DNA of 64,000 bases. Source: a bacterium. GTDB lineage: Bacteria > Bdellovibrionota > UBA1018. Shown one piece after another: positions 17,233 to 34,100 of this stretch. Each line of letters opens with the position of its first letter. Position 1 is the stretch's first letter. Location of the stretch: the NCBI GenBank assembly GCA_019751945.1, contig JAIEMT010000001.1:6635-70634 (forward strand), given 5' to 3'. Made by a program: the position numbers and the translations under genes. The notes under the pieces are model-generated. The model had not been told where the DNA came from. It saw only the letters and a program-made list of their open reading frames with translations, and made no database searches.

Positions 17233-18501
17233 ATGCCGGACTTATGCTATGACTGCGTCGTGATTTACTTTCAATCCCTGACGCGCGATGAACTGGCTGA
17301 TTTGCTTCTGCCCTTCAGCGCCCGTCCCCGAGACCGCCACGTCGATGCCGACGGTACCCCGCTCGTCGAGCTGAATGACGCTCCGTCACTTCCGGAGATC
17401 AAGCGCGCCCGCATGCGCGCAAAGCAGATTTATCACTGGGTCTACCAGCGCTTCGTGACGGATTGGGATCAGATGACCGATCTCAACAAAGAGGTGCGCG
17501 GCTGGCTGAAAGAGAACGTCGAGATCTTTCGCCTGAGCGAGCGCCATGCTCAGCAGGCTACGGACGGCACTCATAAGTTTCTTTGGAATCTTCCGGATCA
17601 TAAAACCATCGAAAGCGTGATCATTCCCGCCGCTCTTCAGGAAAAAGACAAGATGGAAAACGACGGCAAGGTGTTTCGCGGTCGTCCTTCTGAAGAGGAG
17701 TTGGATTCGCAACATTGGTCGCGATTGACGGCATGCATTTCGAGCCAAGTGGGCTGCGCGATGGCGTGTAAGTTCTGCCTCACCGGAATTCAGGGTTTAG
17801 ACCGCAGCCTGGCTGTACACGAAATCGTGACTCAGGTTTTTGAACTGCGAAAGCAGGCGCCGATCACGAACATCGTTTTCATGGGAATGGGCGAGCCGCT
17901 TCACAACGTCGACAACGTGATCAAGGCCTGCAAAATCCTGCTCGACGAAGATGGAATGAATTTTTCGAAACGGAAGGTCACCGTGAGCACGAGTGGTCTT
18001 GTTCCCGCGATCGAACAGCTGGGTCAGTCCGTCGATGTTTCTTTAGCGATTTCCTTGAACGCTACGACCGACGAAGTTCGTTCGAAGATCATGCCCGTGA
18101 ATAAGAAGTGGAATATCGAAAAGCTGATGGAGACTTGCCGGAACTATCCGCTCGGCTCGCATCGTCGCATCACTTTCGAGTACGTCTTGTTAAAAGATGT
18201 GAACGACACGATGGAAGACGCGGCCCGCTTGTTGAAGCTCGTGCGGGGCATTCCGAACAAGATCAACTTGATTCCTTTTAACGAACACAGTGGTTCTGAG
18301 TTTCTACGCCCATCGGATGAAACCGTTCGGAAGTTTCAGCGTTACTTGGTGGATCGCGGCTTAACGGCGACAGTGAGAATTTCTCGCGGCCAAGATATTC
18401 TGGCGGCCTGCGGACAGCTGCGCAGTATTTTTGGAACAGCTCGCGGCAGCGATCGTCACAAGGACTGGGCGGGCTTAAAGGGAATGGCCGGCACGTCCTG
18501 A
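17233..18501 (+). CDS. rlmN: 23S rRNA (adenine2503-C2)/tRNA methyltransferase, radical SAM
   Basis: RAKQIYHWVY N-terminal motif, the CISSQVGCAMACKFCLTG radical-SAM cluster and MGMGEPLHN. Has an N-terminal insertion and a C-terminal extension of about 25 aa. Confidence 0.85.
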   Translation: MPDLCYDCVVIYFQSLTRDELADLLLPFSARPRDRHVDADGTPLVELNDAPSLPEIKRARMRAKQIYHWVYQRFVTDWDQMTDLNKEVRGWLKENVEIFRLSERHAQQATDGTHKFLWNLPDHKTIESVIIPAALQEKDKMENDGKVFRGRPSEEELDSQHWSRLTACISSQVGCAMACKFCLTGIQGLDRSLAVHEIVTQVFELRKQAPITNIVFMGMGEPLHNVDNVIKACKILLDEDGMNFSKRKVTVSTSGLVPAIEQLGQSVDVSLAISLNATTDEVRSKIMPVNKKWNIEKLMETCRNYPLGSHRRITFEYVLLKDVNDTMEDAARLLKLVRGIPNKINLIPFNEHSGSEFLRPSDETVRKFQRYLVDRGLTATVRISRGQDILAACGQLRSIFGTARGSDRHKDWAGLKGMAGTS

Positions 18502-19178
18502 CAGAGAATCGGAACTCCCTCGGTCTGAAGCTCCACAGCCATTTTGTCGATCTCGTACATTTCTTTTAAATCCTTGATCTGAGCATCCAGAAACATCCAC
18601 GAAACGGTTTTTGCGAGCCACGGGTAAGATTTCTTTTGTTCCGCTTCGGCAGCGTAGATCGGGCCTTGAACGGCGGTCGATCCAATCGATTCTAGAAAAT
18701 GTCGAGTTATGCAAAAGTAAGAGGGAATCTCTTTGAGACGGATAATTTCTAAGAAAGCTTGCTTTTGAAGACCAAAAAAATCCCGCTTCGACGCGAATTC
18801 CTGAAGGCGACTCTGAATGGCTTCAATCTTGGGATAATCGGAAGGAAGCAGCGCTCTCGGGTGGGGCTGAACATAGCTCAAAAAAGCCGGTGCACCTTTG
18901 ACTGAAACCAGCTCCCGACAGAGCATCGGAATTCCCTTCGCTCGAAACGGCGCGGTGATGGGTTCCAGCAAATAGAGTTTCGCGATGGCCCAGTTTTCGT
19001 AGTCAATCAAACGCTTGGTGATGGGTTCCGATCGGCCCTTGGTCACCGTCTTATAAAGGATGTCTCGGGAGTGGTTGAGCTCTTTTCCTTCCTCAACGTG
19101 CGTGCGAATGCAGGGCTCGCTGAGGCAGGCGGAGAGGAGGAAGACTAACAGGAACGCACAGGGAATCTGCTTAATCAT
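18456..19178 (-). CDS. Hypothetical lipoprotein
   Basis: MIKQIPCAFLLVFLLSAC lipobox-like signal. It is the last gene of the MoxR-to-cyclase operon and overlaps the upstream gene by 8 nt. Confidence 0.45.
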   Translation of the reverse strand: MIKQIPCAFLLVFLLSACLSEPCIRTHVEEGKELNHSRDILYKTVTKGRSEPITKRLIDYENWAIAKLYLLEPITAPFRAKGIPMLCRELVSVKGAPAFLSYVQPHPRALLPSDYPKIEAIQSRLQEFASKRDFFGLQKQAFLEIIRLKEIPSYFCITRHFLESIGSTAVQGPIYAAEAEQKKSYPWLAKTVSWMFLDAQIKDLKEMYEIDKMAVELQTEGVPILCQDVPAIPFKPAQSL

Positions 19179-21111
19179 TCAATCGGAATACCAGGCCGTA
19201 TTCCTCACGGCAAGGCATCAACGAGGGGGCTGCTCTCAGAAGTTCGTACGGGTGCATGGTTTGTTTGGCGAGGTTTCGGAGAGACTCGTTTCGAGCCTGG
19301 AAGAGTTCAGCCTCTAGTTGTCCCAGTAGACGAGGCGCGGATTCGGGATCTGCACGGAGTTGTTCAGTCCAGCCTGACGGAACTTCAATGGGAGGATTTG
19401 TTTTCAGAGTTCCCCAGGTCAGAAAGAGATGGATGTTGGGATCGAGGGCCACCTCCGTTTGGAGAAGTTTCCTTTGCCGGTTGACGATATCAGAGATGGC
19501 TTCATTGAGTGCGGCGCTTCGGTCGCTTCTGAGTTTTCCAGGCGGAGGTATCGAGTGAGCATCGATCTCTCGAAAATCACTTGTAACCGCTAAGTAGGCC
19601 CGATTCTCTATGATCTCCGAAAGGAATTTTTGCAGAAGTTTGGGGTCATTGTAAAAAGTCTTTCCAAATTCAACCGAGTATTTTGCCTGAGTCTGCTCGA
19701 TGATTTTTGAAAGTTCCTCGAGGTCATTTCTTAGTTTAATAGCGGTACGATGAAGTTCTTGGTCAAACTTAAGAAAACGATTCACTGTTGCTCCGAAGTG
19801 AGGACTATTGGTATTGGCGAGATTCTCCAAATCTTCTGCGTAGCGAATCCGATTTACTGCGCCTCCGGCTTGTCGAAAGGTCTCCATTCCCACCTCGACT
19901 TGATTTCTACAGGCTTCCAGAATGCCCGCGCGCTCTCTCAGGTTTTTTAGCTGACGCACGTTAATTCTTTCGGGGCTTTCTGCGAAAGCAGCAGCTGCTG
20001 GCACTCTTTCAATCGATGGAGACCTTCTTCTGTCTAGAGCAAAGTATTCACGCGCCGAGGGAGACTGTGCAGCTTCGAGTCCTAGTAGTTCTGCCTCGTT
20101 GGTAACAAGCTCTCCAATCTTAGCAGCGAGACTAGGATCTGCCAGGAGACCCTGCTCCCGAGCTAAAGCCAGCATTTCCTCTCGAAACAGTCTGATTCTT
20201 CTGAGAGGGAAGACGCCACCATCGGGACTGGGGACTTGATTCGGGTCGAATTTTCTTAGGAATCCGTGGATATGCTGGGAAGCTTCGAGTTCCAAACCAT
20301 ATCTCTTTTCAACTTCTGCCTTCAGTTGAGTGTATCGGGTATCAAATTTTTTAGAATTTACACGGACTCTGTCTGCCTCTGTACCTAGTGTCGAAAGAAA
20401 TCGTTCGAAGTTTGAGTCGTTAATTTGTTGAAGGCGCGAAGGACGAATCGCAGAGGCGGCCCCTTTTTTGTAGGTGCTACGAAAATCCTGGATTCGTTTC
20501 GCGGCCTGTTTTCTAATTCGCTGAGATTCTTGATTGCTTTCCTCATTCGTCATGACCATGAGGCTTCCGCGAGGATCAGATCGATAAGTAGGTCTATTTT
20601 GTTTCAGAATTTGGAAATAACTACGAACCTCTGGAGAACGTGAAACCTCAAGTTCATGCATCTGAGTTTCATTGGAGATTAGGAATTCGGTCATTTCTTT
20701 TAAGGCTGTCGATTTTTTTAAGGAAACCTGTCCCGCTTTCACCTCTTCTTTTAATGTGTCGATTTGGAAGAGCGGAAAGGTGGGACCGCCATCAGAAGAA
20801 ATTCTGGCCATCCGGCCGAGAAATTCTCCTCGCAGCTCTACGCTTTCTAAGAAGCTGGCACCGTGCTTCGCCACAAAATCTTGGTGGACTTCCTTGAATT
20901 TGTTTTCAAATTCACGAGTATTCTTCTGGATCCGATCTTTCCAGGCTCGAATATCGACTTGAAGGCCCCTCATTTGCCTCAGGACTTCAATCCCGAAGTC
21001 CTTCTCGTTAGAAACGGCTTTAATTAGTCCGTCCTCGTCGGCTTCAGCGGCGAATAGCGAGGAGGCAGTGAGTGTGGCGGAAAGAATCCACGCCGCCGTC
21101 CAGAGCTTCAT
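19171..21111 (-). CDS. Large secreted hypothetical protein (646 aa) with internal repeats and coiled-coil character
   Basis: Signal peptide MKLWTAAWILSATLTASSLFA. Internal repeats such as SRSPEVRSYFQILKQNR and AQSPSAREYFALDRRRS. The start abuts the cyclase stop. Confidence 0.5.
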   Translation of the reverse strand: MKLWTAAWILSATLTASSLFAAEADEDGLIKAVSNEKDFGIEVLRQMRGLQVDIRAWKDRIQKNTREFENKFKEVHQDFVAKHGASFLESVELRGEFLGRMARISSDGGPTFPLFQIDTLKEEVKAGQVSLKKSTALKEMTEFLISNETQMHELEVSRSPEVRSYFQILKQNRPTYRSDPRGSLMVMTNEESNQESQRIRKQAAKRIQDFRSTYKKGAASAIRPSRLQQINDSNFERFLSTLGTEADRVRVNSKKFDTRYTQLKAEVEKRYGLELEASQHIHGFLRKFDPNQVPSPDGGVFPLRRIRLFREEMLALAREQGLLADPSLAAKIGELVTNEAELLGLEAAQSPSAREYFALDRRRSPSIERVPAAAAFAESPERINVRQLKNLRERAGILEACRNQVEVGMETFRQAGGAVNRIRYAEDLENLANTNSPHFGATVNRFLKFDQELHRTAIKLRNDLEELSKIIEQTQAKYSVEFGKTFYNDPKLLQKFLSEIIENRAYLAVTSDFREIDAHSIPPPGKLRSDRSAALNEAISDIVNRQRKLLQTEVALDPNIHLFLTWGTLKTNPPIEVPSGWTEQLRADPESAPRLLGQLEAELFQARNESLRNLAKQTMHPYELLRAAPSLMPCREEYGLVFRLND

Positions 21112-23007
21112 TTAAGCCGCCTTTTTGATTCGGAAGGGCGGCGGAGTCAATTCGTGGCGGCGGAAGGGGGGCGGAGTCTTTCCGATGAAGGTGCTTTCAC
21201 CCGTGGTGCCGCTTTCCGGGGGAATGAACTCGTAGCCTTCTTTGAAATTGATGACCTCGTACACAGCGACTTCTTCAGCCTTGCCCTTCACCTTGGTGGT
21301 GCCGCGGGCTTCGCAGTGAATGAATTCTTGAATTTCTGCGTAGGTTTCGTCGCTGATCAGGATGTCGGTTTTGAATTCTTTGGTGAGTGACTCCATTCGG
21401 GAGGTCAAGTTCACGTTGTCGCCCAGAATCGTGTATTCCATGCGTTCGGGAGAACCGATGTTCCCCGCGACGACTGAGCCGGTGTGCATGCCCATTCCGA
21501 TGGCGATAACGGGCTTCCCATTCGCCGCTTGGTCTTCATTAAAACGTTTGAGTTCAGCGCGCATGCGGAGCGCTGCGGAGACAGCGCGGAGTGAGTCGTT
21601 TTCGTGCGAAATCGGCGTGCCGTAGACGGCCATGATGGCGTCACCGACGTATTTGTCGACCACGCCTCCGTGAGCGAAAATGATTCGCACCATGCGGGTC
21701 ATGTAACCGTTGATCAGTTCCACGACCTGTTCCGGTTCGAGTTTCTCGGAAATGCTGGTGAATGAACGAATGTCTGAGAAGAAAATGGTGACCTTCTTGC
21801 GTTCACCGGTGAGCTGCATTTCGCCCGATAGAATTTTATCAGCGATATCCTTGGAGTGAAATTTTGAAAACGCGTTTTTAATTTTTTCACGCTCGGCTAA
21901 GCCCTGAGTCATCTCCGTGAACGATTTCGAAAGATCTCCGATTTCGTCGTTGCTCGTTTTTTTAATTTTGACTTGGTAATTGCCCTTGGAAATTTCTTCA
22001 GTCGCTTCCACCAAGCTGATGAGCGGGCGGGTGAGCGATAAGCTGAACAAGAAGATCACGTAGAAGCCGATGACGCTCACAATCGTGGTGATGTAAATCG
22101 AAGTGTTTCGAACCTGGCGCGCTGGCTTCGTAGCCATGGCTTCTTCTTTTTGTGTGACGACGCCGATGTTTGCAAAACCCACCGTTTTAAACGCACCCAG
22201 GTACGCCACGCCGTTGGAAGGATCAACGAATCGAGTTTGACCGTTGTTGATGGTCTTCGCCGAAATCAATTGCTTCACGATTTCTAAGTGCGAAACGTTT
22301 TCCCGTTTCAGAACTTTTTGCTGATCAGGATGAGCAAGTAAGTAGCCCTGTGAATCGACCAGATAGCTGGTGTTGAGATTGTCGGAGTCGTCCTTCTGAT
22401 CGGGTGAACGGGTGCCGTTCGAAACCGTTCGTAAGAATCGATCTTGTTTCAAGATGGCCACTACCGAGTGAGTGACGTTGTTCTGGTCGTCGCTCACGAG
22501 TGGAAGTGATATCACCATCAGTGGAATATTTCCGTGAAGCTGAAGGCTTTGAATGGTTTCGTTCCCAGCCTTCATCTTGTCATAAGGGAGTTCGCCCAGA
22601 ATCTTTTGCATTTCTTCGTTGTTGGAATCGAGGCTTTTTACCAGCGCGTCGTTCGAGGCTTGGCCAACCGGACGGGCCTTTCCATCGGCGAGAGTGAAAA
22701 CCGTGGTACTAAGCAAATCTTTTTCGTGTTCGAAAAGCGGGCGTTGCACTGCTTCGACTTGTGCTTGGGGAAGGTTCTGCATGAGAGTGACACCGAGGAG
22801 GCGCATCTTCTCAGCGAGATTGTTCAAGTCGTTCTTCATCACTTGAGCCACCAGGCGAGCCGTTTCCAAGTTACTTTCTTGGACGCGCGCCACGTTGTCG
22901 CGGTTGAAGAAGAAGCTGGCGAAACCAATGATTGCCAGTGCCGCTGCCAGCAGCACGGTGTTGATGATTCCCACCAGTTTAGTGCGAATATTGAAACGAA
23001 CCTTCAT
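21112..23007 (-). CDS. Receptor-type class III adenylate/guanylate cyclase with a periplasmic sensor domain and a HAMP domain
   Basis: TM1, a periplasmic domain of about 270 aa, TM2, HAMP (LISLVEATEEISKGNYQVKIKKTSNDEIGDLSKSF), then the cyclase core FSDIRSFT...VDKYVGDAIMAVYG. The C-terminal tail has a duplicated TPPPFR. Confidence 0.85.
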   Translation of the reverse strand: MKVRFNIRTKLVGIINTVLLAAALAIIGFASFFFNRDNVARVQESNLETARLVAQVMKNDLNNLAEKMRLLGVTLMQNLPQAQVEAVQRPLFEHEKDLLSTTVFTLADGKARPVGQASNDALVKSLDSNNEEMQKILGELPYDKMKAGNETIQSLQLHGNIPLMVISLPLVSDDQNNVTHSVVAILKQDRFLRTVSNGTRSPDQKDDSDNLNTSYLVDSQGYLLAHPDQQKVLKRENVSHLEIVKQLISAKTINNGQTRFVDPSNGVAYLGAFKTVGFANIGVVTQKEEAMATKPARQVRNTSIYITTIVSVIGFYVIFLFSLSLTRPLISLVEATEEISKGNYQVKIKKTSNDEIGDLSKSFTEMTQGLAEREKIKNAFSKFHSKDIADKILSGEMQLTGERKKVTIFFSDIRSFTSISEKLEPEQVVELINGYMTRMVRIIFAHGGVVDKYVGDAIMAVYGTPISHENDSLRAVSAALRMRAELKRFNEDQAANGKPVIAIGMGMHTGSVVAGNIGSPERMEYTILGDNVNLTSRMESLTKEFKTDILISDETYAEIQEFIHCEARGTTKVKGKAEEVAVYEVINFKEGYEFIPPESGTTGESTFIGKTPPPFRRHELTPPPFRIKKAA

Positions 23008-23012
23008 AGTCC

Positions 23013-25169
23013 CTATCTTTTATCGGCTGTCGAATTCTTAAACTGAAGATAGAGATCGGAAAGTTCACGGCTTTTTTGGAAAAGGTCTTTCTCGTCAGGG
23101 GGGCCGAATCGGAAATGATTGTAGAGCTGAACCCAGTTCTGCAGAGCATGCGTCGCGCTATGTCCAAATTTTGACTCCACCTGGACCAGGCTGCGCTGAA
23201 ATTCGAGAGTTTTGCGGGATTCTCGGAGTTTTTTACTCAGAAGACGTTCGAGCTTGATGCGTTGCGCGCGAAGCCACCACGGACCCTCTCGAACTCTCCA
23301 ACGAATCGAAAAAATTCCGGGGAACCAGGTTCGGGCGACCAAGAGGCCAATGACGCCGACCACGACAATCAGGACAAAGGCAACGACAGCGAGCCATTGA
23401 TAGTGAGCGAACGTGTCGCGGACCCACTGACCAAATCGAGAGGTCTGACCATCTCCCGAGGATTTTCTAAACGGGGCAGTGACACTTAAACCCATTTCGA
23501 TTTGAGAGTTGGATTCGAACGACAAGACGTATCGGTACCAGTAAGCGCTGAGGGCTTCGTATTGGTCTCGGAAGGTGTCGAGGAGGGAGAGGTTCACGTA
23601 CTCTCTCGGAGTGGGGTCGTAAACTTTCCAACCTTCTCTGGGAATCCAAACCTCCAGCCAAGCGTGCGCGTCGCCCGAGCGAACGGTTAAAATTCCGTTT
23701 GCCGGACCTCGCGAGAGTCGAAATCCGGCGATCAAGCGAGTGGGGACTCCGCCCATCCTAAGGAGGACTGCAGCCGCGCTGGCAAAGTGTTCGCAGTGGC
23801 CAGCCTTCGAAACAAAGAGAAATTTTTCGATCGCATTGAGTTGGGAAGCAAGCGAGCGATTCTGAGTGTTGAAATATTCTTCCTCCGTGTTTGCTAGAGT
23901 GGCTTTGTAGCCTTTGCCCAGGAGGTCCATCACTTTTCCAAGTTTTGTCGCGGCATCCGTCTCGGTGGGGAAAAGGCGTTTCACGAATTTTTTTAGTCCA
24001 TTGGTACGAATGGAATCTGGAACGATGAGGTGAACGGGTTGAGGAAGGTCGTCCTCGCGAAAAGATTTGTGGATGGCCAGAGATTTTCCGCTCAGTGAGA
24101 AGTTATAGCTCACTCGTCGAGTTCTGGAGTTGGATTCGTTCCACTCACTTCCACTCGTTCGCATGGGGCGGGTTTTGAATCCGCTTTCCTCAAGAAGGAC
24201 TCGGTTAGCTCCGTAGGGAACAGGCAATACAACCGAGTCGATGGGCTCGCGAATGGCAAAAACGGAGAGCTGATTTTTCTCATCCATTTCTGTTGCGGGG
24301 TTTCGGTTCCTTTGGCGGTAAGGCATTGGAACCATCTCGCGCTTTCCCTGAGGGGTATTGTACCAGTCTTTACCATCGAAGACCGAGAGGACCCGTCCCC
24401 GAAGGAGACCCGCGAAGACCAAGCTCAGGAAAAACTGATTGGCCGTTTTGGCGTCATCCATTTGGGTGAACATTCGAATTACGGGAGATCCGCTGCCAGC
24501 ACCGGTGAGTGAGAATCCCTTAGCGAGGGTGACTTCTTCCGTGTAACCGACTCGGCGTTGATCCACGAGGTCCGGCATTCCCGTTTTTGTTCTCGGGAGA
24601 ATGGGGAAGATGGCAAAACTGCTTAAGAGAATCACCGCTGATAGCATCAAACTGTTTCGAAGATAGGATGGCGATAGCGGACGATGAAGCTGTTCGGGCG
24701 CTCGCGTTTTAAATTCGCTTTCTAAGAACAGTGTCGAAATGAGGATCGAACTGAGAATGGCGAAAAGAAAAATAGCCAGGGAGAGATAGAGATCGTTGGT
24801 GATGGCAGCCGTGAGGTTGAGCTCCACAAATCCGATGCCGACGCGCCAACCCTTCTCACGTGGAGTAGGAGCTGAGAACCAAAGCGAGGCATGAAAAATC
24901 GGCGCCGCCTGAGCCACCATCAAGAGCAGCGGCTCTTTTAGAAACCACCAAGAAAAGAAAGTTCCGCAAAGAGTGAGAAAGAGAGCCCCGGCCATCCAGC
25001 CGTTTCCCATTTGAATGCGGCGCAATCGCGTCAGTACAAGGAGACTCAGGACGAAGGCCCAAATGCCGGGGCGCACTTCCCCGGTGAGAGCCAGAGTTCC
25101 CAAAGCAATGAGATCGAGCGACCAGCTCAGAAATCCGGAGAGGCGAGTGACGGACCAGTTCGAGATCAC
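23013..25169 (-). CDS. Transglutaminase-like membrane protein (TgpA-like: DUF3488, transglutaminase core, DUF4129-like C-terminus)
   Basis: Multi-TM N-terminus, the core GHCEHFASAAAVLLRMGGVPTRLIAGF...GDAHAWLEVW (Cys-His-Asp), and a C-terminal TM region. Confidence 0.85.
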   Translation of the reverse strand: MISNWSVTRLSGFLSWSLDLIALGTLALTGEVRPGIWAFVLSLLVLTRLRRIQMGNGWMAGALFLTLCGTFFSWWFLKEPLLLMVAQAAPIFHASLWFSAPTPREKGWRVGIGFVELNLTAAITNDLYLSLAIFLFAILSSILISTLFLESEFKTRAPEQLHRPLSPSYLRNSLMLSAVILLSSFAIFPILPRTKTGMPDLVDQRRVGYTEEVTLAKGFSLTGAGSGSPVIRMFTQMDDAKTANQFFLSLVFAGLLRGRVLSVFDGKDWYNTPQGKREMVPMPYRQRNRNPATEMDEKNQLSVFAIREPIDSVVLPVPYGANRVLLEESGFKTRPMRTSGSEWNESNSRTRRVSYNFSLSGKSLAIHKSFREDDLPQPVHLIVPDSIRTNGLKKFVKRLFPTETDAATKLGKVMDLLGKGYKATLANTEEEYFNTQNRSLASQLNAIEKFLFVSKAGHCEHFASAAAVLLRMGGVPTRLIAGFRLSRGPANGILTVRSGDAHAWLEVWIPREGWKVYDPTPREYVNLSLLDTFRDQYEALSAYWYRYVLSFESNSQIEMGLSVTAPFRKSSGDGQTSRFGQWVRDTFAHYQWLAVVAFVLIVVVGVIGLLVARTWFPGIFSIRWRVREGPWWLRAQRIKLERLLSKKLRESRKTLEFQRSLVQVESKFGHSATHALQNWVQLYNHFRFGPPDEKDLFQKSRELSDLYLQFKNSTADKR

Positions 25170-26068
25170 GCTGCCTCCTTTCGAGGAATCAGCCCTTGGG
25201 CTTGAGCCAGCGCGAGTTGATCCAAGGAATCTTTTCTGCCGTGATACGTGCGCGCACCTTCCCAGTCGACGAGGGTGAGCGACCAGGTTTTTCCTTCTTC
25301 GCCCGCGTCGGAGTAGAAGACTTGGGCGAGGTCTCGAATTCGATTTTCCAACGACGTGCCCGCTTCGGTACGTAGATCCAGAACGAGTTTTTCATCCTGA
25401 CTTTCAGAACGGCGTTGTCGGACGAGAGGTTCCGTGCCGCGTGCACTGAGTGTCCAGACGACGTGTCGGTAGTCGTCGTCCCAGGTCATGGGGCGAACTT
25501 CTCCCTCTTGGATTCTGACTCCGGCTTTAAAAGTTCCCTCGGAGTTTGGAGATCGATTTTTAGAGCTGTCTCCCTTGAGGGGCTCTGGCCAAATGATTCG
25601 TCTTCCGCCTTTGTTACTCAAGATTCTGAGTTTTTTTGCGAACCCAAAAGGGTAGCTCGTCGCGATGGCAAGGGCATCCCAGGTGTGCCATCCCCGTTGA
25701 TCGAAGCGCTGTTTTGAAGAAATCACAATGGACTGCCGGGGCGCGAGAAAGGGTACAAACGCAGATGGAACGAACTTTCCATTTGTCCATTCCCCCACTT
25801 CTACACAGAAGATTGGAAATCGTCGTTGGTTCGAAATGTAGACTTGGTCTTTCGGAGCCGAGTTGGCCGCTACAGGAATTCTTTTAAACTCAATTTTGAG
25901 AGCTGAGATGGAGCGCTCAGAGAGGATTCCAGAAAGGATGAGACCGCTCAGAAGAAGGCTTTCGATCAGATAGACGATGTTATTTCCGGAAGAGAGGGCC
26001 ACGACCCCGAGCAGAATCGTCAGAGCTACGTACCAGCGACCTGCAACCGTGACTTCCAGTTTTCGCAT
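25166..26068 (-). CDS. DUF58 domain protein
   Basis: The N-terminal TM pair followed by the DUF58 core. It sits in the conserved MoxR-DUF58-TgpA arrangement with 3-4 nt junctions. Confidence 0.75.
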   Translation of the reverse strand: MRKLEVTVAGRWYVALTILLGVVALSSGNNIVYLIESLLLSGLILSGILSERSISALKIEFKRIPVAANSAPKDQVYISNQRRFPIFCVEVGEWTNGKFVPSAFVPFLAPRQSIVISSKQRFDQRGWHTWDALAIATSYPFGFAKKLRILSNKGGRRIIWPEPLKGDSSKNRSPNSEGTFKAGVRIQEGEVRPMTWDDDYRHVVWTLSARGTEPLVRQRRSESQDEKLVLDLRTEAGTSLENRIRDLAQVFYSDAGEEGKTWSLTLVDWEGARTYHGRKDSLDQLALAQAQGLIPRKEAA

Positions 26069-26071
26069 GGG

Positions 26072-27055
26072 TTATTTTGGAGAGCGAACTCTCTCCAAAA
26101 TCTCCTGAATAACTGCGCGTTTTTGCGTCGTTCCTCGATGTCCGTCGGTAAAAGACAAACGATGGGCAAGGCATGCCACCGCCATGTCCCGAACTTCTTT
26201 GGGGCTGACGAAGTCTTGACCGCGAAGATAGGCTAGGCCTTTTGCAGCCGCGACGAGTTGCAGGCCCCCCCGAACGGAGACGCCGAAGGCAATGTCCTCG
26301 TGAACGCGAGTAGCGCGAACAAGGTCCAAGCAGTATTCGAGAACTGATTTTTCGACAAAGAGACGGGCCACTGAGGAACGAATTTTCTGAATTCCCTCGA
26401 TCGTGAAAAGGGGTTCTTCCGTGGTCTCAGAAACCAAGGGTGAGGAACGGTCCGTATGGGCCTGGTAGATTTCAAATTCGCTGTCTTTTTCTGGAGAATC
26501 CACCGTGAGAGAAAGCATGAAGCGATCGAGTTGGCTTTCTGCGAGCGGGTAGACACCCTGAAACTCTGCCGGGTTCTGTGTAGCAACTACGAAGAACGGA
26601 TTGGGAAGCGAGTAGACTTTTCCGTCGACTGTCACAGTGGCTTCGGCCATGGATTCGAGTAGAGCGCTTTGGGTTTTTGGTCCCGTTCGGTTCAACTCGT
26701 CTGCTAGGAGAAAATTCGTGAAGATCGGGCCCTGGCGAAATTCAAATTCCGAATCGCCGGGCTTTAGGCGCAAGATTCCCACGATGTCGCTGGGAAGCAG
26801 GTCACTGGTCATTTGGATTCTTCGAAAAGTTCCGCCGAAGCAGGAGGCCAAGCCTCGGGCCAAAGAAGTTTTTCCGGTGCCCGGAGCCCCTTCCAAGAGG
26901 AGGTGCCCCGCGCCCAAGAACGTCGCGAGCGACAATTCTACGACGGAGTCTTTTCCATGCAGATATTGGGACAGCCTCTTCAAAGCGAGTTGAAGGAGAG
27001 CTTGATGCTCAGCGTGATTCTCACCTCTGAGTTTTTCGGAGCGCGCAATGGACAT
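26072..27055 (-). CDS. MoxR-family AAA+ ATPase
   Basis: GAPGTGKTSLARGLA Walker A, DELNRTGPKTQSALLE Walker B/sensor, and 327 aa, typical of MoxR. Confidence 0.9.
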   Translation of the reverse strand: MSIARSEKLRGENHAEHQALLQLALKRLSQYLHGKDSVVELSLATFLGAGHLLLEGAPGTGKTSLARGLASCFGGTFRRIQMTSDLLPSDIVGILRLKPGDSEFEFRQGPIFTNFLLADELNRTGPKTQSALLESMAEATVTVDGKVYSLPNPFFVVATQNPAEFQGVYPLAESQLDRFMLSLTVDSPEKDSEFEIYQAHTDRSSPLVSETTEEPLFTIEGIQKIRSSVARLFVEKSVLEYCLDLVRATRVHEDIAFGVSVRGGLQLVAAAKGLAYLRGQDFVSPKEVRDMAVACLAHRLSFTDGHRGTTQKRAVIQEILERVRSPK

Positions 27056-27237
27056 GAGTGGTCCCTCTCTCTTTTTGAATCGACATAAACGGCGGTTCGT
27101 ATGAGAAGAATCGATCAGTTCGTTATAGTTTAGTTATTTAATAAATTATCAGCAGATAATCTGGGCAGCTTCTGCCCACCGACGTGGTGCATTAACCTCT
27201 TCTTTCTCCAGATTTAGGCCGATACGAAGTGTAGAGC

Positions 27238-29742
27238 ATGGAAAGTTCAATTCGTATTCAGAACGAAAGAAAAGAGATCATCGCGGTCACACTGTTCGCG
27301 ATCATGGCGATCTATTTTTTCGCGCAGTTGATTCAGCGAGAGTTGAAGCCGGGGAATCTGGGCGGATCTCAGCGCACCGTTGTCGCTCGTTTGCAACTTG
27401 CCACTCAGAACGTTCAAAGAAAATTCGACAAAGAAGTGCTTTGGGAAAGTGTGGCATCGAGTGTTCCGCTCTACACGCGCGATTCGGTTCGAACGGCCGA
27501 GAAAAGTGCCGCTCGAATTCTCTTCGAAGACGGAAGCTTGATCGAGATGGCCGAAAATTCCCTCATTGTCTTAGATCGCACCGACGAAAAAATTCAGGTC
27601 GACTTCATGAAGGGTTCGGTTTTTGCGAAAGCAAAAGGAATCGAAATCAATACGGGCCGCGGAAAAATTGAATTGGGCAAAGACAAGAAAGGCGAACTTT
27701 CCCTGGTAGCTGGACAATCAGGTCTCGAAGTGACCGTCGCAGAAGGCAGCGCCAAGATTAAAACCGACAAGGGCGAAGCCGTTTTGGGCGTGAACGAAAA
27801 GGGGAGCCTCAGTGACGGCGGCATTTCTCAGCAGAAACTGAAACTCCGCGGCACTTTACCGGAGCAAAATGCGAAGTTCGTGGTGGCCCAGGGCGCTGCG
27901 CCCATTCAATTTGCCTGGGAAGGCGATAAAGAATTCGTTCCGATCTCGCGCCTTCAGATCGCGCGCGATTCCAGCTTCCGATCTCCAGTGAAGTTTTCTG
28001 CTTCCGAGTTGGCAGACGGGAAGGCCAGCGTAGCTCTGGCCGAAGGCACATACTACTGGAGAGTGATTGCCAAGGGAACTCAAGCAGGTCCTGATGGAAA
28101 AACAAAGAACGAAGTGAGTGACCAAAGGCTTCTTCAAGTGATTCGTCACTGGCCTGTTCAACTCGATCAGCCCATGGCTGGTTCTAAAATTAGCTTCTTT
28201 AAGCAAGCGCCGAGCGTGGCATTGAGCTGGCGAAGTCAAGTTCGTGAGGGTGAACAGGAAGTCCAAATATCAAAAGATGCCAAGTTCTCTCAGCTTCTCC
28301 CAAAGATTTCTTCCGTCAGTGAAGGAAATTCCTTCCGCGCGGGAGTGAATGGAATTGAGCCTGGAAAATACTTTTGGAGAGTGGTGACCCGCTACGATGG
28401 GATGGGTGCAAAACGCGACGAGAAATTGGCCTTGAATTCTGACGTCCGCGGATTTGAAATTCAGAAACTCGATCAATTGCCGAGCCCGGTACTCGTCCAG
28501 CCGGCCGAGAATGCTTCGTTAGCGTTAGGGAAGGACAAGTCCAAGATCTTCTTTTCATGGCAGCCTGTCAGCGAAGCAAATGGTTATAAAATCGTGGTAG
28601 CACGAGATGCGAAACTGAAATCGGTAGTCTTAGAACAAAAGCTCGGCCCCATGAGTAGCTTTGAAATGCCCTTCCAAGAAACGGGGACGTTTCATTGGAG
28701 TGTAGAGGCGATCAGCGCGGAGGAAACTTCTGATCCTGCCCAGTCTCGTTCGTTCGTTTCTAATCGAGTGGGTGGTTTCAATCTCATCGCTCCGAAAGCA
28801 GCACAGGCCTTTAGCTATTTGAAACGAAAGCCTGTTGTGAAATTCCAATGGGAAAAGATTTCGGGCACTAAGACTTATATCCTTCAGGTTTCAGGAGATC
28901 CGGATTTTAAATCGGTGAGTTGGAGTCAGGAATCCGACGAACCCCAGATTGAATCCGATGAATTACCCTCAGGCGTGAAGTACTGGCGTGTAGTGGCTCG
29001 GGGAGATCGAGCTCAGTCCATTGGAATTAGCGAGACCCGACAGTATCGCCTTGAGATGGATCCGTTAATGGCGGCCCCCGTGAAGATGGAACCCCAGAGT
29101 GGTTTCAAAGTTCAGCTGGGTGCTGAAGAGTCCGCCCGAAAGGTGAAGCTGGAGTGGAAGGCTGTTGAGAAAACCCGAGGCTATCGACTCTACCTTTATA
29201 AGCAGCCTGCCGGTGGGAAGCAGGAAACGATTTTGGATGGAGAAGAAGTTGACGAACTCTTCTTTGAAAAGAAGCTCCAAGCCGGCGCTTATCAATGGGA
29301 TGTTCGCGCTGTCGACGAAGTGAAACGCACAGGTCAGGCCGGTTCGATGAGATCTTTTGAGGTCGTCAACGCGTTCCGACTCGCTCCGCCGATTGCGAAG
29401 GCTCCGTTGAATCGCGCCATGATTCAGGAACCCAAACCCGTTCCCGTGAAGTTCAAGTGGGAGTCGGTGGAGGGTGCTGACGGGTATCTCATCAGTATTT
29501 ATCAGGTGGGCGAGGGTGGGAAGCTCAAGCTGGTTCAGAAAAAAGATACGAGCGACACCGAGTATAAGACGGAAAAAATGCTCAAAGCAGGAACTTACAA
29601 GTGGCAGGTGGTGGCCCATGGAAAACTGAAGGGCGAGCCAGCCGTGTTTGATTTGAATGTGAAATGGACAGACTTTTTAAGAGCACCGATGAAGGTGCGA
29701 ATGCAAGTCGAGGGGGATCGAATACCGGCTAGCCGGCGTTAG
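27238..29742 (+). CDS. Inner-membrane-anchored FecR-domain protein with about six tandem Fn3-like repeats
   Basis: N-terminal TM (IIAVTLFAIMAIYFF). A FecR-like block (ILFEDGSLIEMAENSLIVLDR...VDFMKGSVFAK...). Then repeats each carrying W-x-x-V-x-x-A-x-G-Y...D..F and G(T/K)Y-x-W-x-V motifs (YYWRVIA, YFWRVVT, FHWSVEA, KYWRVVA, YQWDVRA, YKWQVVA). Confidence 0.7.
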   Translation: MESSIRIQNERKEIIAVTLFAIMAIYFFAQLIQRELKPGNLGGSQRTVVARLQLATQNVQRKFDKEVLWESVASSVPLYTRDSVRTAEKSAARILFEDGSLIEMAENSLIVLDRTDEKIQVDFMKGSVFAKAKGIEINTGRGKIELGKDKKGELSLVAGQSGLEVTVAEGSAKIKTDKGEAVLGVNEKGSLSDGGISQQKLKLRGTLPEQNAKFVVAQGAAPIQFAWEGDKEFVPISRLQIARDSSFRSPVKFSASELADGKASVALAEGTYYWRVIAKGTQAGPDGKTKNEVSDQRLLQVIRHWPVQLDQPMAGSKISFFKQAPSVALSWRSQVREGEQEVQISKDAKFSQLLPKISSVSEGNSFRAGVNGIEPGKYFWRVVTRYDGMGAKRDEKLALNSDVRGFEIQKLDQLPSPVLVQPAENASLALGKDKSKIFFSWQPVSEANGYKIVVARDAKLKSVVLEQKLGPMSSFEMPFQETGTFHWSVEAISAEETSDPAQSRSFVSNRVGGFNLIAPKAAQAFSYLKRKPVVKFQWEKISGTKTYILQVSGDPDFKSVSWSQESDEPQIESDELPSGVKYWRVVARGDRAQSIGISETRQYRLEMDPLMAAPVKMEPQSGFKVQLGAEESARKVKLEWKAVEKTRGYRLYLYKQPAGGKQETILDGEEVDELFFEKKLQAGAYQWDVRAVDEVKRTGQAGSMRSFEVVNAFRLAPPIAKAPLNRAMIQEPKPVPVKFKWESVEGADGYLISIYQVGEGGKLKLVQKKDTSDTEYKTEKMLKAGTYKWQVVAHGKLKGEPAVFDLNVKWTDFLRAPMKVRMQVEGDRIPASRR

Positions 29743-29751
29743 TTTGCAAAA

Positions 29752-32019: not shown

Positions 32020-32935
32020 TCTTGCTTCCCTGAACGCACCCATTCTTTTCGAGAGTGGATCTCAAAACATTGTGGGGATGCCAGCGTTCCCGGCTCCACA
32101 CTGGGGCTAAACATTCATCCACATGGGTGGCTTGGGCACAAAGTCTTTCTAGATAAATGGACGGATCTAAATGCTCGACGAATTCCAAAACCTGCTCGGC
32201 ATACTCTTCGAGGCTCAGCGTGTGAAACGCCTTCTCTTTCCAGCGGCGAGCCAGCTCGGTATTTTCTAAAATCATCAGTTGGTGCAGTTTCACGCCTTTC
32301 ACTCCCAGTTGATTCAATAAGAGAGCAGAATCTCGAGGGTTGGTCCGAGAATCCGGAGGCGACCCAAACATGAGATGGGCGCAGGTGTGAACGTGAGGAG
32401 CCCGTTCTTTCAATCGGTTCAAGGCATCGATGGAGCTTTGACCGTCGTGGCCGCGCTCTAACCAGAGCAAAGTGGGATCTTCAAACGATTGCACACCGAG
32501 TTCAAGCGAAACGTAACGGCGTTCCGCCAGCTCCTCAAGTAAATCAATGACGGGATCAGGAATACAATCCGGCCTGGTGCCGATACAGAGTCCCGCCACT
32601 TCGGGGTGAGTCAGTGCCGCTTCGTAAATCGTTCTTAGGTAATCTATGTCCGAATAAGTGTTGGTGTAGCTTTGAAAGTAAGCGAGAAATTTCTGAGCCC
32701 CGAAGCGTTCGCGGACTTCAGGAATTCTTTTTTGAATCTGATCCGCTACCGACTTTCCTCGGCCCTGTTTTCCGAAAAAGGAACTCGAACCGCGGACATC
32801 GCAAAAGGCACAGCCGGCTTTAGCAATTGAGCCATCGCGTGTAGGGCAGGTGAGCCCACTGGCAACCACGATTTTATAAGTCTTCGCGCCAAAGGTATTT
32901 TGTAAATACTGGCTATAGGAATAAAGCTGCGACAT
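31991..32935 (-). CDS. TIGR01212 (YhcC-like) radical SAM protein
   Basis: MSQLYSYSQYLQNTFGAKTYKIVV...LTCPTRDGSIAKAGCAFCDV matches the YhcC family N-terminus. The start is trimmed from 32971 to the Met at 32935. Confidence 0.8.
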   Translation of the reverse strand: MSQLYSYSQYLQNTFGAKTYKIVVASGLTCPTRDGSIAKAGCAFCDVRGSSSFFGKQGRGKSVADQIQKRIPEVRERFGAQKFLAYFQSYTNTYSDIDYLRTIYEAALTHPEVAGLCIGTRPDCIPDPVIDLLEELAERRYVSLELGVQSFEDPTLLWLERGHDGQSSIDALNRLKERAPHVHTCAHLMFGSPPDSRTNPRDSALLLNQLGVKGVKLHQLMILENTELARRWKEKAFHTLSLEEYAEQVLEFVEHLDPSIYLERLCAQATHVDECLAPVWSRERWHPHNVLRSTLEKNGCVQGSKIRNPSSLPA

Positions 32936-32945
32936 CTCGTCCGTT

Positions 32946-34100
32946 TTAGAACATGAACTTCTTATTGGCAATGTTTGTCAGAATTGCCACGCAAATCACG
33001 GATGTCAGCAGAGACGACCCCCCATAGCTCATGAAGGGTAAGGGGACGCCTACGATGGGCAATAGTCCGCACACCATCCCTAAGTTAATGAAGACGTGCC
33101 AGAAAAAGATCGTGACTATCCCCAGGGCGAGCAAAAGCCCGAACTTGTCGTGTGACTGGTACGCCACGCCTAGGCCGTTGAGAAGAAAGGCCAAATAGAG
33201 GCCAATTAAGATGATGCACCCGATGAATCCACGCTCTTCCCCCCAGACCGAGAAGATAAAGTCGGTGTGATGTTCAGGCAGGAAGTTCAATTGGCTCTGT
33301 GTACCCTTGCGATATCCCTTGCCGACGAGCTGACCACTGCCAATGGCAATCATCGATTGAATGGAGTTGTAACCCGAGCCTTTCGGATCTGCCATGGGGT
33401 CAATAAACGAGATCAGGCGTTGTCGTTGATAGGGCTTTAAACCAAAGCGATAAACAATGGGAGCTGCGACGACGAAACACATCCCTAAAATCAGCATGGT
33501 GCGCGTTTTCACTCGGTTGAAGAAAATCATGGTCGCTGAAGTGAGCACCAAGATCATCGCGGTACCCAAATCGGGCTGAACAATAATGAGCCCCGTCGGA
33601 ACCAGGACCAAAAGCGCGGGTAGGAGCAGATCCCGGAAGCCGAAGCCCCCCACGGTTCGGTCTGTTTCAAAGTACTTAGCTAAGCACACGACCATCGAGA
33701 GCTTCATGATTTCAGACGGCTGAATGCTAAACGGTCCGATGCCCACCCAGCGCTTGGCACCCAAGGACGAGCGACCGACTACTAACACTGCGGCCAATAG
33801 CAGGAGATTTACGAAGTAGAGGAAGTACCCCAGTCGCGAAAAGATCGAGTAGTGCACGAGCAGAATCACAGCCGTTAAAATGATACCGATTCCGAACCAG
33901 AGCAGCTGGGTTTTATAAAGACCGAGGGATTTATCTTCTACCGCTGTCGCGCTAATCAGATTCCAAATTCCGAGTGCAAACAAAATCACTTCCAGAGCAA
34001 TGAGGCTCCAATTGAACTTTTTGAGTTCTTCTTCGTACATCCCCATTCGGGAAGTTTCGGTTTCAATCGGGGTTGGGCTTTCTAGCGCGGAGTGAACCAT
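32946..34100 (-). CDS. rodA: Rod-shape-determining protein RodA (SEDS family peptidoglycan glycosyltransferase)
   Basis: FtsW/RodA/SpoVE motifs ([21 protein letters not shown], multi-TM). Lies downstream of PBP2. An alternative start at 34046 (MGMYEE) is possible. Confidence 0.85.

What the first reader, a model, noticed from the sequence alone, without database searches (positions are those of the whole stretch)
18456..27055. Six-gene operon extending the MoxR-DUF58-transglutaminase triad with a HAMP receptor adenylate cyclase and two secreted proteins
All six minus-strand genes are separated by -8 to +5 nt, which implies co-transcription. MoxR, DUF58 and TgpA-like form a widely conserved triad of unknown function. 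Here it runs directly into a sensor adenylate/guanylate cyclase (periplasmic domain, HAMP, CYCc), a 646-aa secreted repeat/coiled-coil protein and a lipoprotein. This links the enigmatic MoxR chaperone-like system to cyclic-nucleotide signalling and to exported proteins. The cyclase tail also carries a duplicated TPPPFR motif encoded by a DNA direct repeat (GGAAGGGCGGCGGAGTC, twice, at 21120..21180).
Basis: partly seen in the sequence, partly recalled or inferred. Interest (0 to 1): 0.6.

Follow-up and report, generated by a model that had tools for sequence, protein, structure and literature searches.

The report
MoxR triad parked beside sensor cyclase
Six tightly packed genes really are there, but comparison with related genomes shows that an ordinary MoxR-DUF58-transglutaminase trio has simply landed, in one Bdellovibrio-like species only, in front of a sensor adenylate cyclase whose conserved partner is a different, neighbouring gene.

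Summary
Six minus-strand ORFs lie at the stated coordinates, with junctions of +3, -4, +5, 0 and -8 nt. They are a MoxR AAA+ ATPase, a divergent DUF58-like protein, a TgpA-like transglutaminase, a dCache/HAMP class IIIb adenylate cyclase, a 646-aa exported repeat protein (P5) and a 240-aa lipoprotein (P6).

The interpretation, a functional extension of the MoxR triad into cyclic-nucleotide signalling, is not supported by comparative evidence.
- The six-gene order occurs only in near-identical strains (about 97-98% DNA identity).
- None of five cyclase orthologue loci (41-68% identity) has the triad, and none of 80 further metagenomic cyclase loci does.
- None of five close TgpA loci has a cyclase domain nearby, and none of 80 further TgpA loci does.
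- In relatives the cyclase sits directly beside a FecR-domain, Ig-repeat membrane protein (52 of 80 loci). Here that protein is encoded at 27238-29742, and the triad splits this conserved pair.
- P5 has no detectable relative apart from its own sequence and a 33-residue fragment of it. P6 had no homologue in any locus examined.
- Junctions this tight are normal in this compact genome.

Co-transcription in this species is plausible but untested. Verdict: a lineage-specific juxtaposition of known modules, of low to moderate interest. Side observations are a conserved PPPF motif and a terminal -AA in the cyclase tail.

The parts
26072..27055 (-). MoxR-type AAA+ ATPase (MoxR-proper subfamily), 327 aa; first gene of the triad
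   Evidence: Pfam AAA_3 3e-55 and AAA_lid_2 7.8e-18. Walker A (GAPGTGKT) and Walker B (LLADELNR) are visible in the translation. dN/dS is 0.01 against the sister strain. It is 59.5% identical to the MoxR of the Bdellovibrionales triad in L007.
25166..26068 (-). Divergent DUF58-like protein with two N-terminal transmembrane helices, 300 aa; second gene of the triad
   Evidence: Pfam DUF58 reaches only E=0.026, below threshold. BLASTP gives 3e-12 over 281 aa to the DUF58 part of the fusion protein P0151. It is 46% identical to the equivalent gene in L007. Its end overlaps the tgpA start by 4 nt, as in all homologous triads. dN/dS is 0.04.
23013..25169 (-). TgpA-like polytopic membrane transglutaminase / cysteine-protease-fold protein, 718 aa; third gene of the triad
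   Evidence: Pfam Transglut_core 3.9e-17 and TgpA_N 1.4e-8. Cys459, His502 and Asp518 are invariant across 16 homologues. The closest non-self homologues are only 33-37% identical. The most strain-variable stretch of the block is 23000-24000.
21112..23007 (-). Membrane sensor adenylate cyclase, class IIIb: TM, dCache-like periplasmic domain, TM, HAMP, catalytic domain, then a short Pro-rich tail
   Evidence: Pfam HAMP, Guanylate_cyc and weak dCache_1. The best solved relative is the P. aeruginosa CyaB catalytic domain 3r5g, E=4e-43. D412, K452, D456 and R537 are invariant, and T526 and N533 nearly invariant, in 22 homologues. The N-terminus aligns from residue 1 with orthologues, so the start codon and the 5-nt gap are real. 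Against the sister strain there are 24 synonymous and 0 non-synonymous differences.
21131..21178 (-). Two copies of TPPPFR in the cyclase's cytoplasmic tail, followed by the C-terminal ...KKAA
   Evidence: The DNA copies are 17/18 identical and 30 nt apart. PPPF occurs in the tails of 26 of 120 homologues and never in their first 400 residues. The C-terminal dipeptide AA occurs in 44 of 120 homologues and in 10 of the 11 closest.
19171..21111 (-). P5: 646-aa orphan exported protein, mostly helical, built of about three repeats of roughly 200 aa
   Evidence: The signal-peptide-like N-terminus is visible in the translation. There is no Pfam or NCBIfam family. The word-index search found only itself. 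The exhaustive HMMER search of 1.84 billion representatives returned only its own sequence (P0001) and a 33-residue fragment (P0179) matching its residues 1-31 at 97% identity. The AlphaFold2 model is unusable, pLDDT 38. There are zero substitutions among three assemblies.
18456..19178 (-). P6: 240-aa orphan predicted lipoprotein (lipobox LLSAC)
   Evidence: There is no family hit. tblastn found no homologue in any fetched locus. dN/dS of 0.09-0.13 against sister strains indicates a real coding gene. The AlphaFold2 model is unusable, pLDDT 37. Its 3' end overlaps convergent rlmN by 46 nt.
27056..27237 (.). 182-nt divergent intergenic region between moxR and the FecR-domain gene; the likely promoter region for both directions
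   Evidence: The sequence is. One sigma-70-like match lies on the + strand at 27101-27129. There is no Rfam family. There is no detectable similarity to the cyclase-upstream regions of relatives.
27238..29742 (+). FecR-domain membrane-anchored protein with about 6-7 Ig-like repeats, 834 aa; the conserved genomic partner of the cyclase, here separated from it by the triad
   Evidence: Pfam FecR 5.7e-9, Ig_J and DUF4992. The N-terminal TM helix and repeated W..Y.W.V motifs are visible. Homologues lie directly beside the cyclase in L002-L004 and L172 and in 52 of 80 metagenomic cyclase loci.
29752..32019 (+). 755-aa protein of unknown family, co-directional with the FecR gene and syntenic with it in relatives
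   Evidence: There is no Pfam hit. Homologues of 25-31% identity follow the FecR gene in L002-L004.
17233..18501 (+). rlmN (radical SAM rRNA/tRNA methyltransferase), convergent; it marks the conserved far boundary of the variable slot downstream of the cyclase
   Evidence: RlmN_N and Radical_SAM are recorded for the identical gene in L001 and L005. It is 70-72% identical and syntenic in L002 and L004.

Best explanation
The 8.6-kb block is a composite of three independently evolving units. In one Bdellovibrionota species they have come to lie head to tail.

(1) A canonical, self-contained MoxR-DUF58-TgpA triad. By analogy with characterised MoxR systems and P. aeruginosa TgpA, it most likely works as follows. 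A cytoplasmic AAA+ remodelling ATPase acts through the two-TM DUF58 adaptor on the polytopic TgpA. TgpA's Cys-His-Asp domain then modifies envelope substrates on the periplasmic side.

(2) A dCache-HAMP class IIIb adenylate cyclase that turns a periplasmic signal into cAMP. Its evolutionarily conserved partner is the FecR/Ig-repeat membrane protein now encoded divergently at 27238-29742.

(3) Two species-restricted exported orphans: P5, a repeat protein, and P6, a lipoprotein. They occupy a slot between the cyclase and rlmN that holds different exported orphans in each relative.

The ancestral order was [755-aa gene, FecR gene] <-> [cyclase] ... <- rlmN. In this lineage the triad was relocated into the divergent promoter region. 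It ended 5 nt before the cyclase start codon, so the cyclase is now probably transcribed by read-through from the moxR promoter.

Shown: gene content, catalytic residues, synteny in relatives, and the species restriction of the linkage. Inferred: the direction of the rearrangement, co-transcription, and the absence of functional coupling.
For: - Ancestral synteny: orthologous cyclases of 53-68% identity are directly divergent from the FecR gene pair, and rlmN lies downstream in L002 and L004, with no triad. A homologue of 41% identity also lacks the triad.
- Among 80 further cyclase loci, tblastn, a TgpA HMM and MoxR phmmer found no MoxR, DUF58 or TgpA. A FecR_834 homologue is adjacent in 52 of the 80.
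- The five closest TgpA homologues sit in stand-alone three-gene triads in unrelated neighbourhoods. These are followed by convergent or unrelated genes, twice by DsbD.
- Among 80 TgpA loci across bacteria, MoxR is present in 52 and a cyclase catalytic domain in none. A full-length cyclase HMM gave one weak 21.9-bit hit about 5 kb away in L076, which I take to be HAMP-type.
- The six-gene order is seen only in assemblies 96.8-98.1% identical in DNA.
- P5 and P6 have no homologues in the relatives' equivalent slot, which holds other exported-looking orphans.
- In P. aeruginosa the triad is co-transcribed, but the adjacent downstream gene PA2872, although predicted to be in the operon, is transcribed independently (PMC3507681).
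- FecR-domain proteins clustered with sensor cyclases or kinases are already documented (PMC9239204, PMC5192318).
Against: - The junctions are extremely tight (+5 and 0 nt around the cyclase) and are conserved among the three strains. No internal promoter or terminator signal stands out. A genuine six-gene transcript is therefore likely, and selection may have favoured it.
- A precedent exists for a MoxR-DUF58-transglutaminase set coupled to a membrane signalling enzyme and a secreted protein: the Bifidobacterium PFNA cluster, in which the kinase is reported to phosphorylate the MoxR ATPase (PMC8430577).
- No genome closer than about 68% cyclase identity, other than same-species strains, was available to date the rearrangement.
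Confidence: 0.72

Rival explanations
1. This is a genuine functional six-gene operon. In this species the MoxR-DUF58-TgpA machine has been recruited to assemble, mature or modify the sensor cyclase complex or the exported proteins P5 and P6, so that envelope remodelling is coupled to cAMP signalling.
For: - Junctions of -8 to +5 nt, with no promoter-like or terminator-like enrichment inside the block.
- The arrangement is retained in three assemblies despite 2-3% divergence and mosaic recombination.
- All genes that show variation are under purifying selection.
- All six products are membrane or envelope proteins.
- There is a PFNA-cluster precedent in Bifidobacterium.
Against: - The linkage is absent from every related or unrelated locus examined: 0 of 85 cyclase loci and 0 of 85 TgpA loci.
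- The cyclase already has a strongly conserved partner, the FecR protein, and the triad interrupts that pair.
- Tight junctions are the rule in this genome, even between unrelated genes.
- Retention in three near-identical strains is not independent evidence.
Confidence: 0.15
2. The six-gene order is ancestral and the relatives have lost or moved the triad and P5/P6. On this reading the linkage is old and its absence elsewhere is secondary.
For: No same-genus genome outside the species was available to polarise the change directly. TgpA evolves fast (33-37% identity to the nearest homologues), so orthology of the stand-alone triads to this one is not proven.
Against: - It would require repeated independent losses. 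Five of five orthologue loci spanning 41-68% identity, and 80 of 80 more distant loci, lack the triad. FecR adjacency is kept throughout.
- Stand-alone triads are the universal state.
- P5 has no relatives at all beyond its own sequence and a fragment of it.
Confidence: 0.05
3. The cyclase plus downstream genes form a cyclic-nucleotide anti-phage module of Pycsar type, in which a cyclase makes a nucleotide signal that activates an adjacent effector.
For: The cyclase matches PADLOC PycC models, best E=4e-31. The downstream genes are fast-evolving orphans in a variable slot.
Against: - The PycC match covers only the shared class III catalytic fold.
- The protein is a dCache-HAMP membrane receptor with the Lys/Thr adenine-specifying pair. 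It is vertically syntenic, next to mreC-pbp2-rodA and rlmN, across relatives.
- P5 and P6 have export signals and no cyclic-nucleotide-binding, TIR or pore-forming family hit.
Confidence: 0.02

Closest known systems
Pseudomonas aeruginosa PA2875-PA2874-tgpA (PA2873) operon (Milani et al. 2012, PMC3507681)
   Same: The three-gene order is the same: MoxR-type ATPase, DUF58 protein, then a polytopic TgpA with a Cys-His-Asp transglutaminase core. The duf58 and tgpA genes overlap here. In P. aeruginosa the triad is co-transcribed, and its TgpA periplasmic domain has transglutaminase activity in vitro.
   Different: The proteins here are very divergent, and the DUF58 gene falls below the Pfam threshold. 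A cyclase follows 5 nt after tgpA. In P. aeruginosa the gene after tgpA (PA2872) is unrelated and transcribed independently.
Bifidobacterium PFNA cluster (pkb2, fn3, aaa-atp, duf58, tgm; PMC8430577)
   Same: A MoxR-DUF58-transglutaminase set sits in one cluster with a membrane signalling enzyme and a large secreted protein.
   Different: There the signalling enzyme is a Ser/Thr kinase placed upstream and the secreted protein carries FN3 domains. That cluster is conserved across many Bifidobacterium species. Here the enzyme is an adenylate cyclase placed downstream, the exported proteins are orphans without FN3, and the arrangement is confined to one species.
P. aeruginosa CyaB and other class IIIb membrane adenylate cyclases (PDB 3r5g)
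   Same: The catalytic domain matches at E=4e-43, with all six catalytic residues and the Lys/Thr substrate pair. It is a membrane-anchored sensor architecture.
   Different: The sensor module here is dCache-like plus HAMP, which, from my own knowledge, is not CyaB's MASE2 sensor. The C-terminal tail carries PPPF motifs and ends in -AA.
FecR-domain protein + sensor cyclase/kinase clusters (CHASE2 cyclase + FecR outer-membrane protein in Campylobacterota, PMC9239204; LysM-FecR + CHASE2 histidine kinase in Burkholderia, PMC5192318)
   Same: A periplasm-facing FecR-domain protein is encoded next to a membrane sensor enzyme. This pairing is strongly conserved for the present cyclase family (52 of 80 loci).
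   Different: The sensor domain is dCache/HAMP rather than CHASE2. The FecR protein is about 830 aa with Ig-like repeats. In this window the pair is split by the inserted triad.

Membership tests
MoxR-DUF58-TgpA triad | MoxR-proper AAA+ ATPase (AAA_3) with Walker A and B motifs as the first gene | tested here: met
   AAA_3 3e-55 and AAA_lid_2 7.8e-18. GAPGTGKT and LLADELNR are in the translation.
MoxR-DUF58-TgpA triad | DUF58 (PF01882) protein with two N-terminal TM helices as the second gene | tested here: inconclusive
   Pfam DUF58 scores only 14.2 bits against a cut-off of 23.4. BLASTP gives 3e-12 over 281 aa to the N-terminal part of P0151, a DUF58-TgpA fusion that carries PF01882. The position, length, two TM helices and 4-nt overlap with tgpA match the other triads. 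It is homologous but too divergent for the curated model.
MoxR-DUF58-TgpA triad | TgpA: TgpA_N membrane domain plus Transglut_core with a Cys-His-Asp triad | tested here: met
   PF11992 and PF01841. C459, H502 and D518 are invariant in 16 homologues.
MoxR-DUF58-TgpA triad | Co-transcription of the three genes and transglutaminase or protease activity | not testable with these tools
   Only spacing (+3 and -4 nt) is available. The experimental precedent is from P. aeruginosa.
Class IIIb adenylate cyclase | Class III catalytic domain with two metal-binding Asp and the transition-state Asn and Arg | tested here: met
   Guanylate_cyc 1.6e-31. D412, D456, N533 and R537 are located and conserved. 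They align with CyaB 3r5g.
Class IIIb adenylate cyclase | Substrate-specifying Lys plus Thr (adenine), rather than the Glu/Gly or Glu/Cys of guanylate cyclases | tested here: met
   K452 is in DKYVGD and T526 in EYTILGD. These match DKFVGD and DYTIIG of CyaB. They contrast with DEFMGD and KYGVVG of the guanylate cyclase Cya2, 2w01. The meaning of these residues is taken from established knowledge of class III cyclases.
Class IIIb adenylate cyclase | cAMP synthesis demonstrated | not testable with these tools
   This needs an enzyme assay.
FecR-partnered sensor cyclase module | FecR-domain envelope protein encoded immediately next to the cyclase | tested here: inconclusive
   The FecR gene is present and divergent, but 4.2 kb away because the triad intervenes. 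In relatives it is directly adjacent: 4 of 5 orthologue loci and 52 of 80 further loci.
Bifidobacterium PFNA cluster | Ser/Thr protein kinase (pkb2) and FN3-domain secreted protein alongside the triad | tested here: not met
   None of the six proteins has a Pkinase or fn3 hit.
Bat-type MoxR-DUF58-vWA-TPR operon | vWA (BatA/BatB) and TPR proteins downstream of MoxR-DUF58 | tested here: not met
   There is no VWA or TPR hit in any downstream gene, even at E up to 10 for P5 and P6.
Pycsar anti-phage system | Cytosolic pyrimidine cyclase plus an adjacent effector with a cNMP-binding domain | tested here: not met
   The PycC hits reflect the shared fold only. The protein is a membrane receptor with purine-specifying residues. 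No effector-type domain is found in P5 or P6.

The most novel reading that the evidence does not exclude
In this species the relocated triad has been co-opted. The periplasm-facing TgpA domain, driven by MoxR through the DUF58 adaptor, would cross-link or cleave envelope components of the cyclase signalling complex. Candidates are the dCache domain, the FecR/Ig-repeat partner, or the orphan exported proteins P5 and P6. This would make it a natural case in which the enigmatic triad has an identifiable substrate and a cAMP read-out.
Probability: 0.12. Interest if true: 0.55.

Novelty: new member of a known kind. Interest (0 to 1): 0.25.

Why it matters
If the linkage were functional, it would give the widespread but poorly understood MoxR-DUF58-TgpA triad a tractable substrate and a measurable output (cAMP). 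The comparative evidence says otherwise. The triad is a self-contained cassette that moves as a unit, and here it has merely been inserted into the promoter region of a sensor cyclase.

The useful results are mostly corrective.
- Operon-like spacing in a compact genome is not evidence of shared function.
- The real conserved partner of this dCache-HAMP cyclase family is a FecR/Ig-repeat envelope protein.
- The family carries a conserved C-terminal PPPF motif and a terminal -AA that may mediate protein binding or proteolytic control.

Tried and rejected
- **Homologue searches for P5.** The word-index search and the exhaustive HMMER search of 1.84 billion representatives returned only P5's own sequence and a 33-residue fragment of it. 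No family could be assigned.
- **AlphaFold2 single-sequence models of P5 and P6.** Mean pLDDT was 38 and 37. This is too low for any fold search, so none was run.
- **Traces of the rearrangement.** The cyclase-upstream and moxR-upstream DNA was aligned with the cyclase-upstream regions of relatives. Nothing rose above shuffles, even among the relatives themselves. The 15/18 direct repeat flanking the triad (23050-23067 and 27232-27249) is treated as chance.
- **Composition.** GC content shows no anomaly across the block that would mark foreign DNA.
- **Relatives' slot proteins.** P5 and P6 were compared with the unrelated small proteins in the same slot in relatives. No similarity was found (z of 1.3 or less).
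- **RNA and defence families.** Rfam found no RNA family between 16000 and 33000. PADLOC gave only fold-level PycC hits for the cyclase and generic AAA hits for MoxR, so the defence-system reading was rejected.
- **BLASTP self-comparison of P5.** It gave no off-diagonal hit. The repeats became significant only with Smith-Waterman against shuffles.


Full report
**1. What is in the sequence**

The junctions are +3, -4, +5, 0 and -8 nt.

| Gene | Coordinates | Length | Main evidence |
|---|---|---|---|
| MoxR | 26072-27055 | 327 aa | AAA_3 3e-55, AAA_lid_2 |
| DUF58-like | 25166-26068 | 300 aa | No Pfam hit at E 0.01 or better |
| TgpA-like | 23013-25169 | 718 aa | TgpA_N and Transglut_core |
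| Cyclase | 21112-23007 | 631 aa | Weak dCache_1, HAMP, Guanylate_cyc |
| P5 | 19171-21111 | 646 aa | No family |
| P6 | 18456-19178 | 240 aa | No family |

- **DUF58-like gene.** It reaches only E=0.026 against DUF58, below Pfam's threshold. It does align over 281 residues (E=3e-12) with the N-terminal part of P0151, a DUF58-TgpA fusion that carries PF01882. It occupies the same slot, with the same 4-nt overlap, as in every homologous triad. I treat it as a very divergent DUF58 relative.
- **TgpA.** Cys459, His502 and Asp518 are invariant in 16 homologues.
- **Cyclase.** Its closest solved relative is the class IIIb cyclase CyaB of P. aeruginosa (3r5g, E=4e-43). It keeps D412, K452, D456, T526, N533 and R537. 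The Lys/Thr pair predicts ATP as substrate. The guanylate cyclase Cya2 (2w01) has Glu and Gly at these positions in the same alignment.
- **P5.** It has a signal-peptide-like N-terminus and is built from repeats of about 200 residues. Repeat 1 against repeat 2 gives z=17.9, and repeat 1 against repeat 3 gives z=6.8.
- **P6.** It has a lipobox (LLSAC). Its dN/dS is 0.09-0.13 against sister strains, so it is a real gene.
- **DNA repeat.** The repeat in the cyclase tail is 17/18 identical, not exact.

**2. Is the packing more than chance?**

Not by itself. Reading the ORF list, about 17 of 21 other same-strand neighbour pairs in this window are also 12 nt or less apart. These include functionally unrelated neighbours such as a radical-SAM gene overlapping rodA. 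The promoter and terminator scan found nothing enriched inside the block. That is compatible with one transcript but is weak evidence. In P. aeruginosa the triad is co-transcribed. There the adjacent downstream gene, although predicted to be in the operon, is transcribed on its own (PMC3507681).

**3. Comparative evidence**

The organism is an uncultured Bdellovibrionota bacterium. The closest named homologues come from Bdellovibrionales and Bdellovibrionota MAGs.

*Distribution of the six-gene order.* It was found only in assemblies that are 96.8-98.1% identical in DNA to the window, that is, the same species.

*From the cyclase side.*
- Orthologues at 68, 64, 62 and 53% identity (L003, L002, L004, L172) all show one arrangement. 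It runs mreC-pbp2-rodA ... [a gene of 700-785 aa][FecR-domain gene of 800-880 aa] <-> [cyclase].
- rlmN lies convergently downstream in L002 and L004, and a fragment of it sits at the contig end of L003. In L172 a Fic gene follows the cyclase instead.
- None of these loci has MoxR, DUF58 or TgpA. Neither does a homologue of 41% identity.
- In the window the same FecR-domain gene (27238-29742) and its 755-aa companion (29752-32019) are present. They are 36-38% and 25-31% identical to those of the relatives. The triad lies between them and the cyclase.
- A metagenome scan with a cyclase alignment gave 80 loci. None contains a MoxR, DUF58-like or TgpA gene by tblastn, by a TgpA HMM or by MoxR phmmer.
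- A FecR_834 homologue is adjacent in 52 of the 80. It is immediately downstream in 45, divergent in 4, and 1.2-2.5 kb upstream in 3. Most of the remaining 28 are short contigs or partial-length matches.

*From the triad side.*
- The five closest TgpA homologues (28-37% identity) all sit in stand-alone MoxR / ~300-aa protein / TgpA triads. Their neighbourhoods are unrelated and contain no cyclase. Twice the triad is followed by DsbD.
- A genome scan with a TgpA alignment gave 80 loci across many phyla. MoxR is present in 52, and a cyclase catalytic domain in none.
- A full-length cyclase HMM gave one 21.9-bit hit about 5 kb away in a Pseudomonas locus (L076), most likely through HAMP.

*P5 and P6.*
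- The word-index search found only P5 itself.
- The exhaustive HMMER search of 1.84 billion representatives returned only P5's own sequence and a 33-residue fragment of it.
- Neither protein resembles the small proteins that fill the cyclase-rlmN slot in relatives. Those are mutually unrelated and mostly begin with hydrophobic, signal- or lipoprotein-like N-termini.

**4. Interpretation**

The most economical reading is that three separate units are juxtaposed.
- The triad is a mobile, self-contained cassette. In this lineage it was relocated into the divergent promoter region between the FecR gene pair and the cyclase. It ended 5 nt before the cyclase start codon.
- That start codon is genuine, because the protein aligns from residue 1 with its orthologues.
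- The cyclase therefore probably depends on read-through from the moxR promoter in the 182-nt intergenic region 27056-27237. This is inferred, not shown.
- The cyclase's conserved functional partner is the FecR/Ig-repeat envelope protein. The partnership is of a kind already noted for CHASE2 cyclases and kinases (PMC9239204, PMC5192318).
- P5 and P6 are lineage-specific exported proteins in a fast-turnover slot.

**5. What remains possible**

Co-transcription may still create a regulatory coupling in this species. The Bifidobacterium PFNA cluster shows that a MoxR-DUF58-transglutaminase set can be coupled with a signalling enzyme and a secreted protein. That cluster comprises a Ser/Thr kinase, an FN3 protein, the MoxR ATPase, DUF58 and the transglutaminase, and the kinase is reported to phosphorylate MoxR (PMC8430577). 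I give the functional-operon reading about 0.15. The reading that the order is ancestral and was lost elsewhere gets about 0.05. A Pycsar-like reading gets about 0.02, because its PADLOC hits reflect only the shared fold.

**6. Caveats**

- No genome between the same species and about 68% cyclase identity was available.
- The structure predictions for P5 and P6 failed, with pLDDT of 38 and 37.

**7. Verdict**

The components are new, divergent members of known kinds. Their adjacency is a species-specific rearrangement rather than a new system. Interest is about 0.25.

The more reusable findings are three:
- the conserved cyclase-FecR pairing;
- the conserved PPPF motif and terminal -AA in the cyclase tail;
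- the caution that tight spacing in a compact genome does not imply shared function.

Noticed in passing
window 21112-23007 (-) with 27238-29742 (+); loci L089-L168, L002-L004, L172: The dCache-HAMP cyclase family is strongly linked to a FecR-domain envelope protein of about 800-880 aa with Ig-like repeats. The pairing holds in 52 of 80 metagenomic loci, mostly with the FecR gene immediately downstream, and in 4 of 5 close orthologue loci, where it is divergent. This pairing, not the MoxR triad, is the conserved module.
   Followed up: partly
window 21112-21200 (-), cyclase C-terminal tail; homologues P0002-P0121: Tail length is hypervariable among homologues (about 45 to 330 residues, Pro/Ala-rich). 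Two features recur. A PPPF motif occurs in 26 of 120 tails, often duplicated, and never in the first 400 residues. A C-terminal dipeptide -AA occurs in 44 of 120 homologues and in 10 of the 11 closest. The -AA ending resembles an ssrA-like ClpX degron, which is my inference. Three homologues (P0031, P0056, P0094) carry a GYF_2 domain (PF14237), a fold known to bind proline-rich peptides.
   Followed up: partly
window 18935-21268: There is a tract of about 2.1-2.6 kb covering all of P5 that has no substitution in any of three independent assemblies. Flanking genes differ by 1-8% (rlmN dS 0.20-0.27, tgpA dS 0.17). Divergence along the whole region is mosaic, and 28014-33276 is also nearly identical. 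This suggests recent recombination or a sweep within the population, or co-assembly effects.
   Followed up: partly
window 23000-24000 (C-terminal third of tgpA): This is the highest SNP density in the block between strains, 95 differences in 1 kb. tgpA overall has 27 non-synonymous changes and dN/dS of 0.10. The strain-variable part lies downstream of the catalytic core.
   Followed up: no
window 18456-18501: The convergent genes P6 (-) and rlmN (+) overlap by 46 nt at their 3' ends, leaving no room for a terminator between them. The same overlap is called in sister strains L005 and L006.
   Followed up: no
L002 12666-13772, L003 12184-13718, L004 12489-12980, L172 9095-9967; window 18456-21111: The slot downstream of the cyclase (between the cyclase and rlmN in the window, L002 and L004) holds a different gene set in every relative. 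These include mutually unrelated small proteins, mostly with signal- or lipoprotein-like N-termini, and once a Fic protein. It looks like a hotspot of gene turnover next to a conserved sensor.
   Followed up: partly
L007 12824-14950 and L174 9035-11089: In two Bdellovibrionales genomes the stand-alone triad is followed by a convergent DsbD (thiol-disulfide interchange) gene, and in L007 also by an AhpC/Redoxin gene. This may be the more usual neighbourhood of the triad in this group.
   Followed up: no
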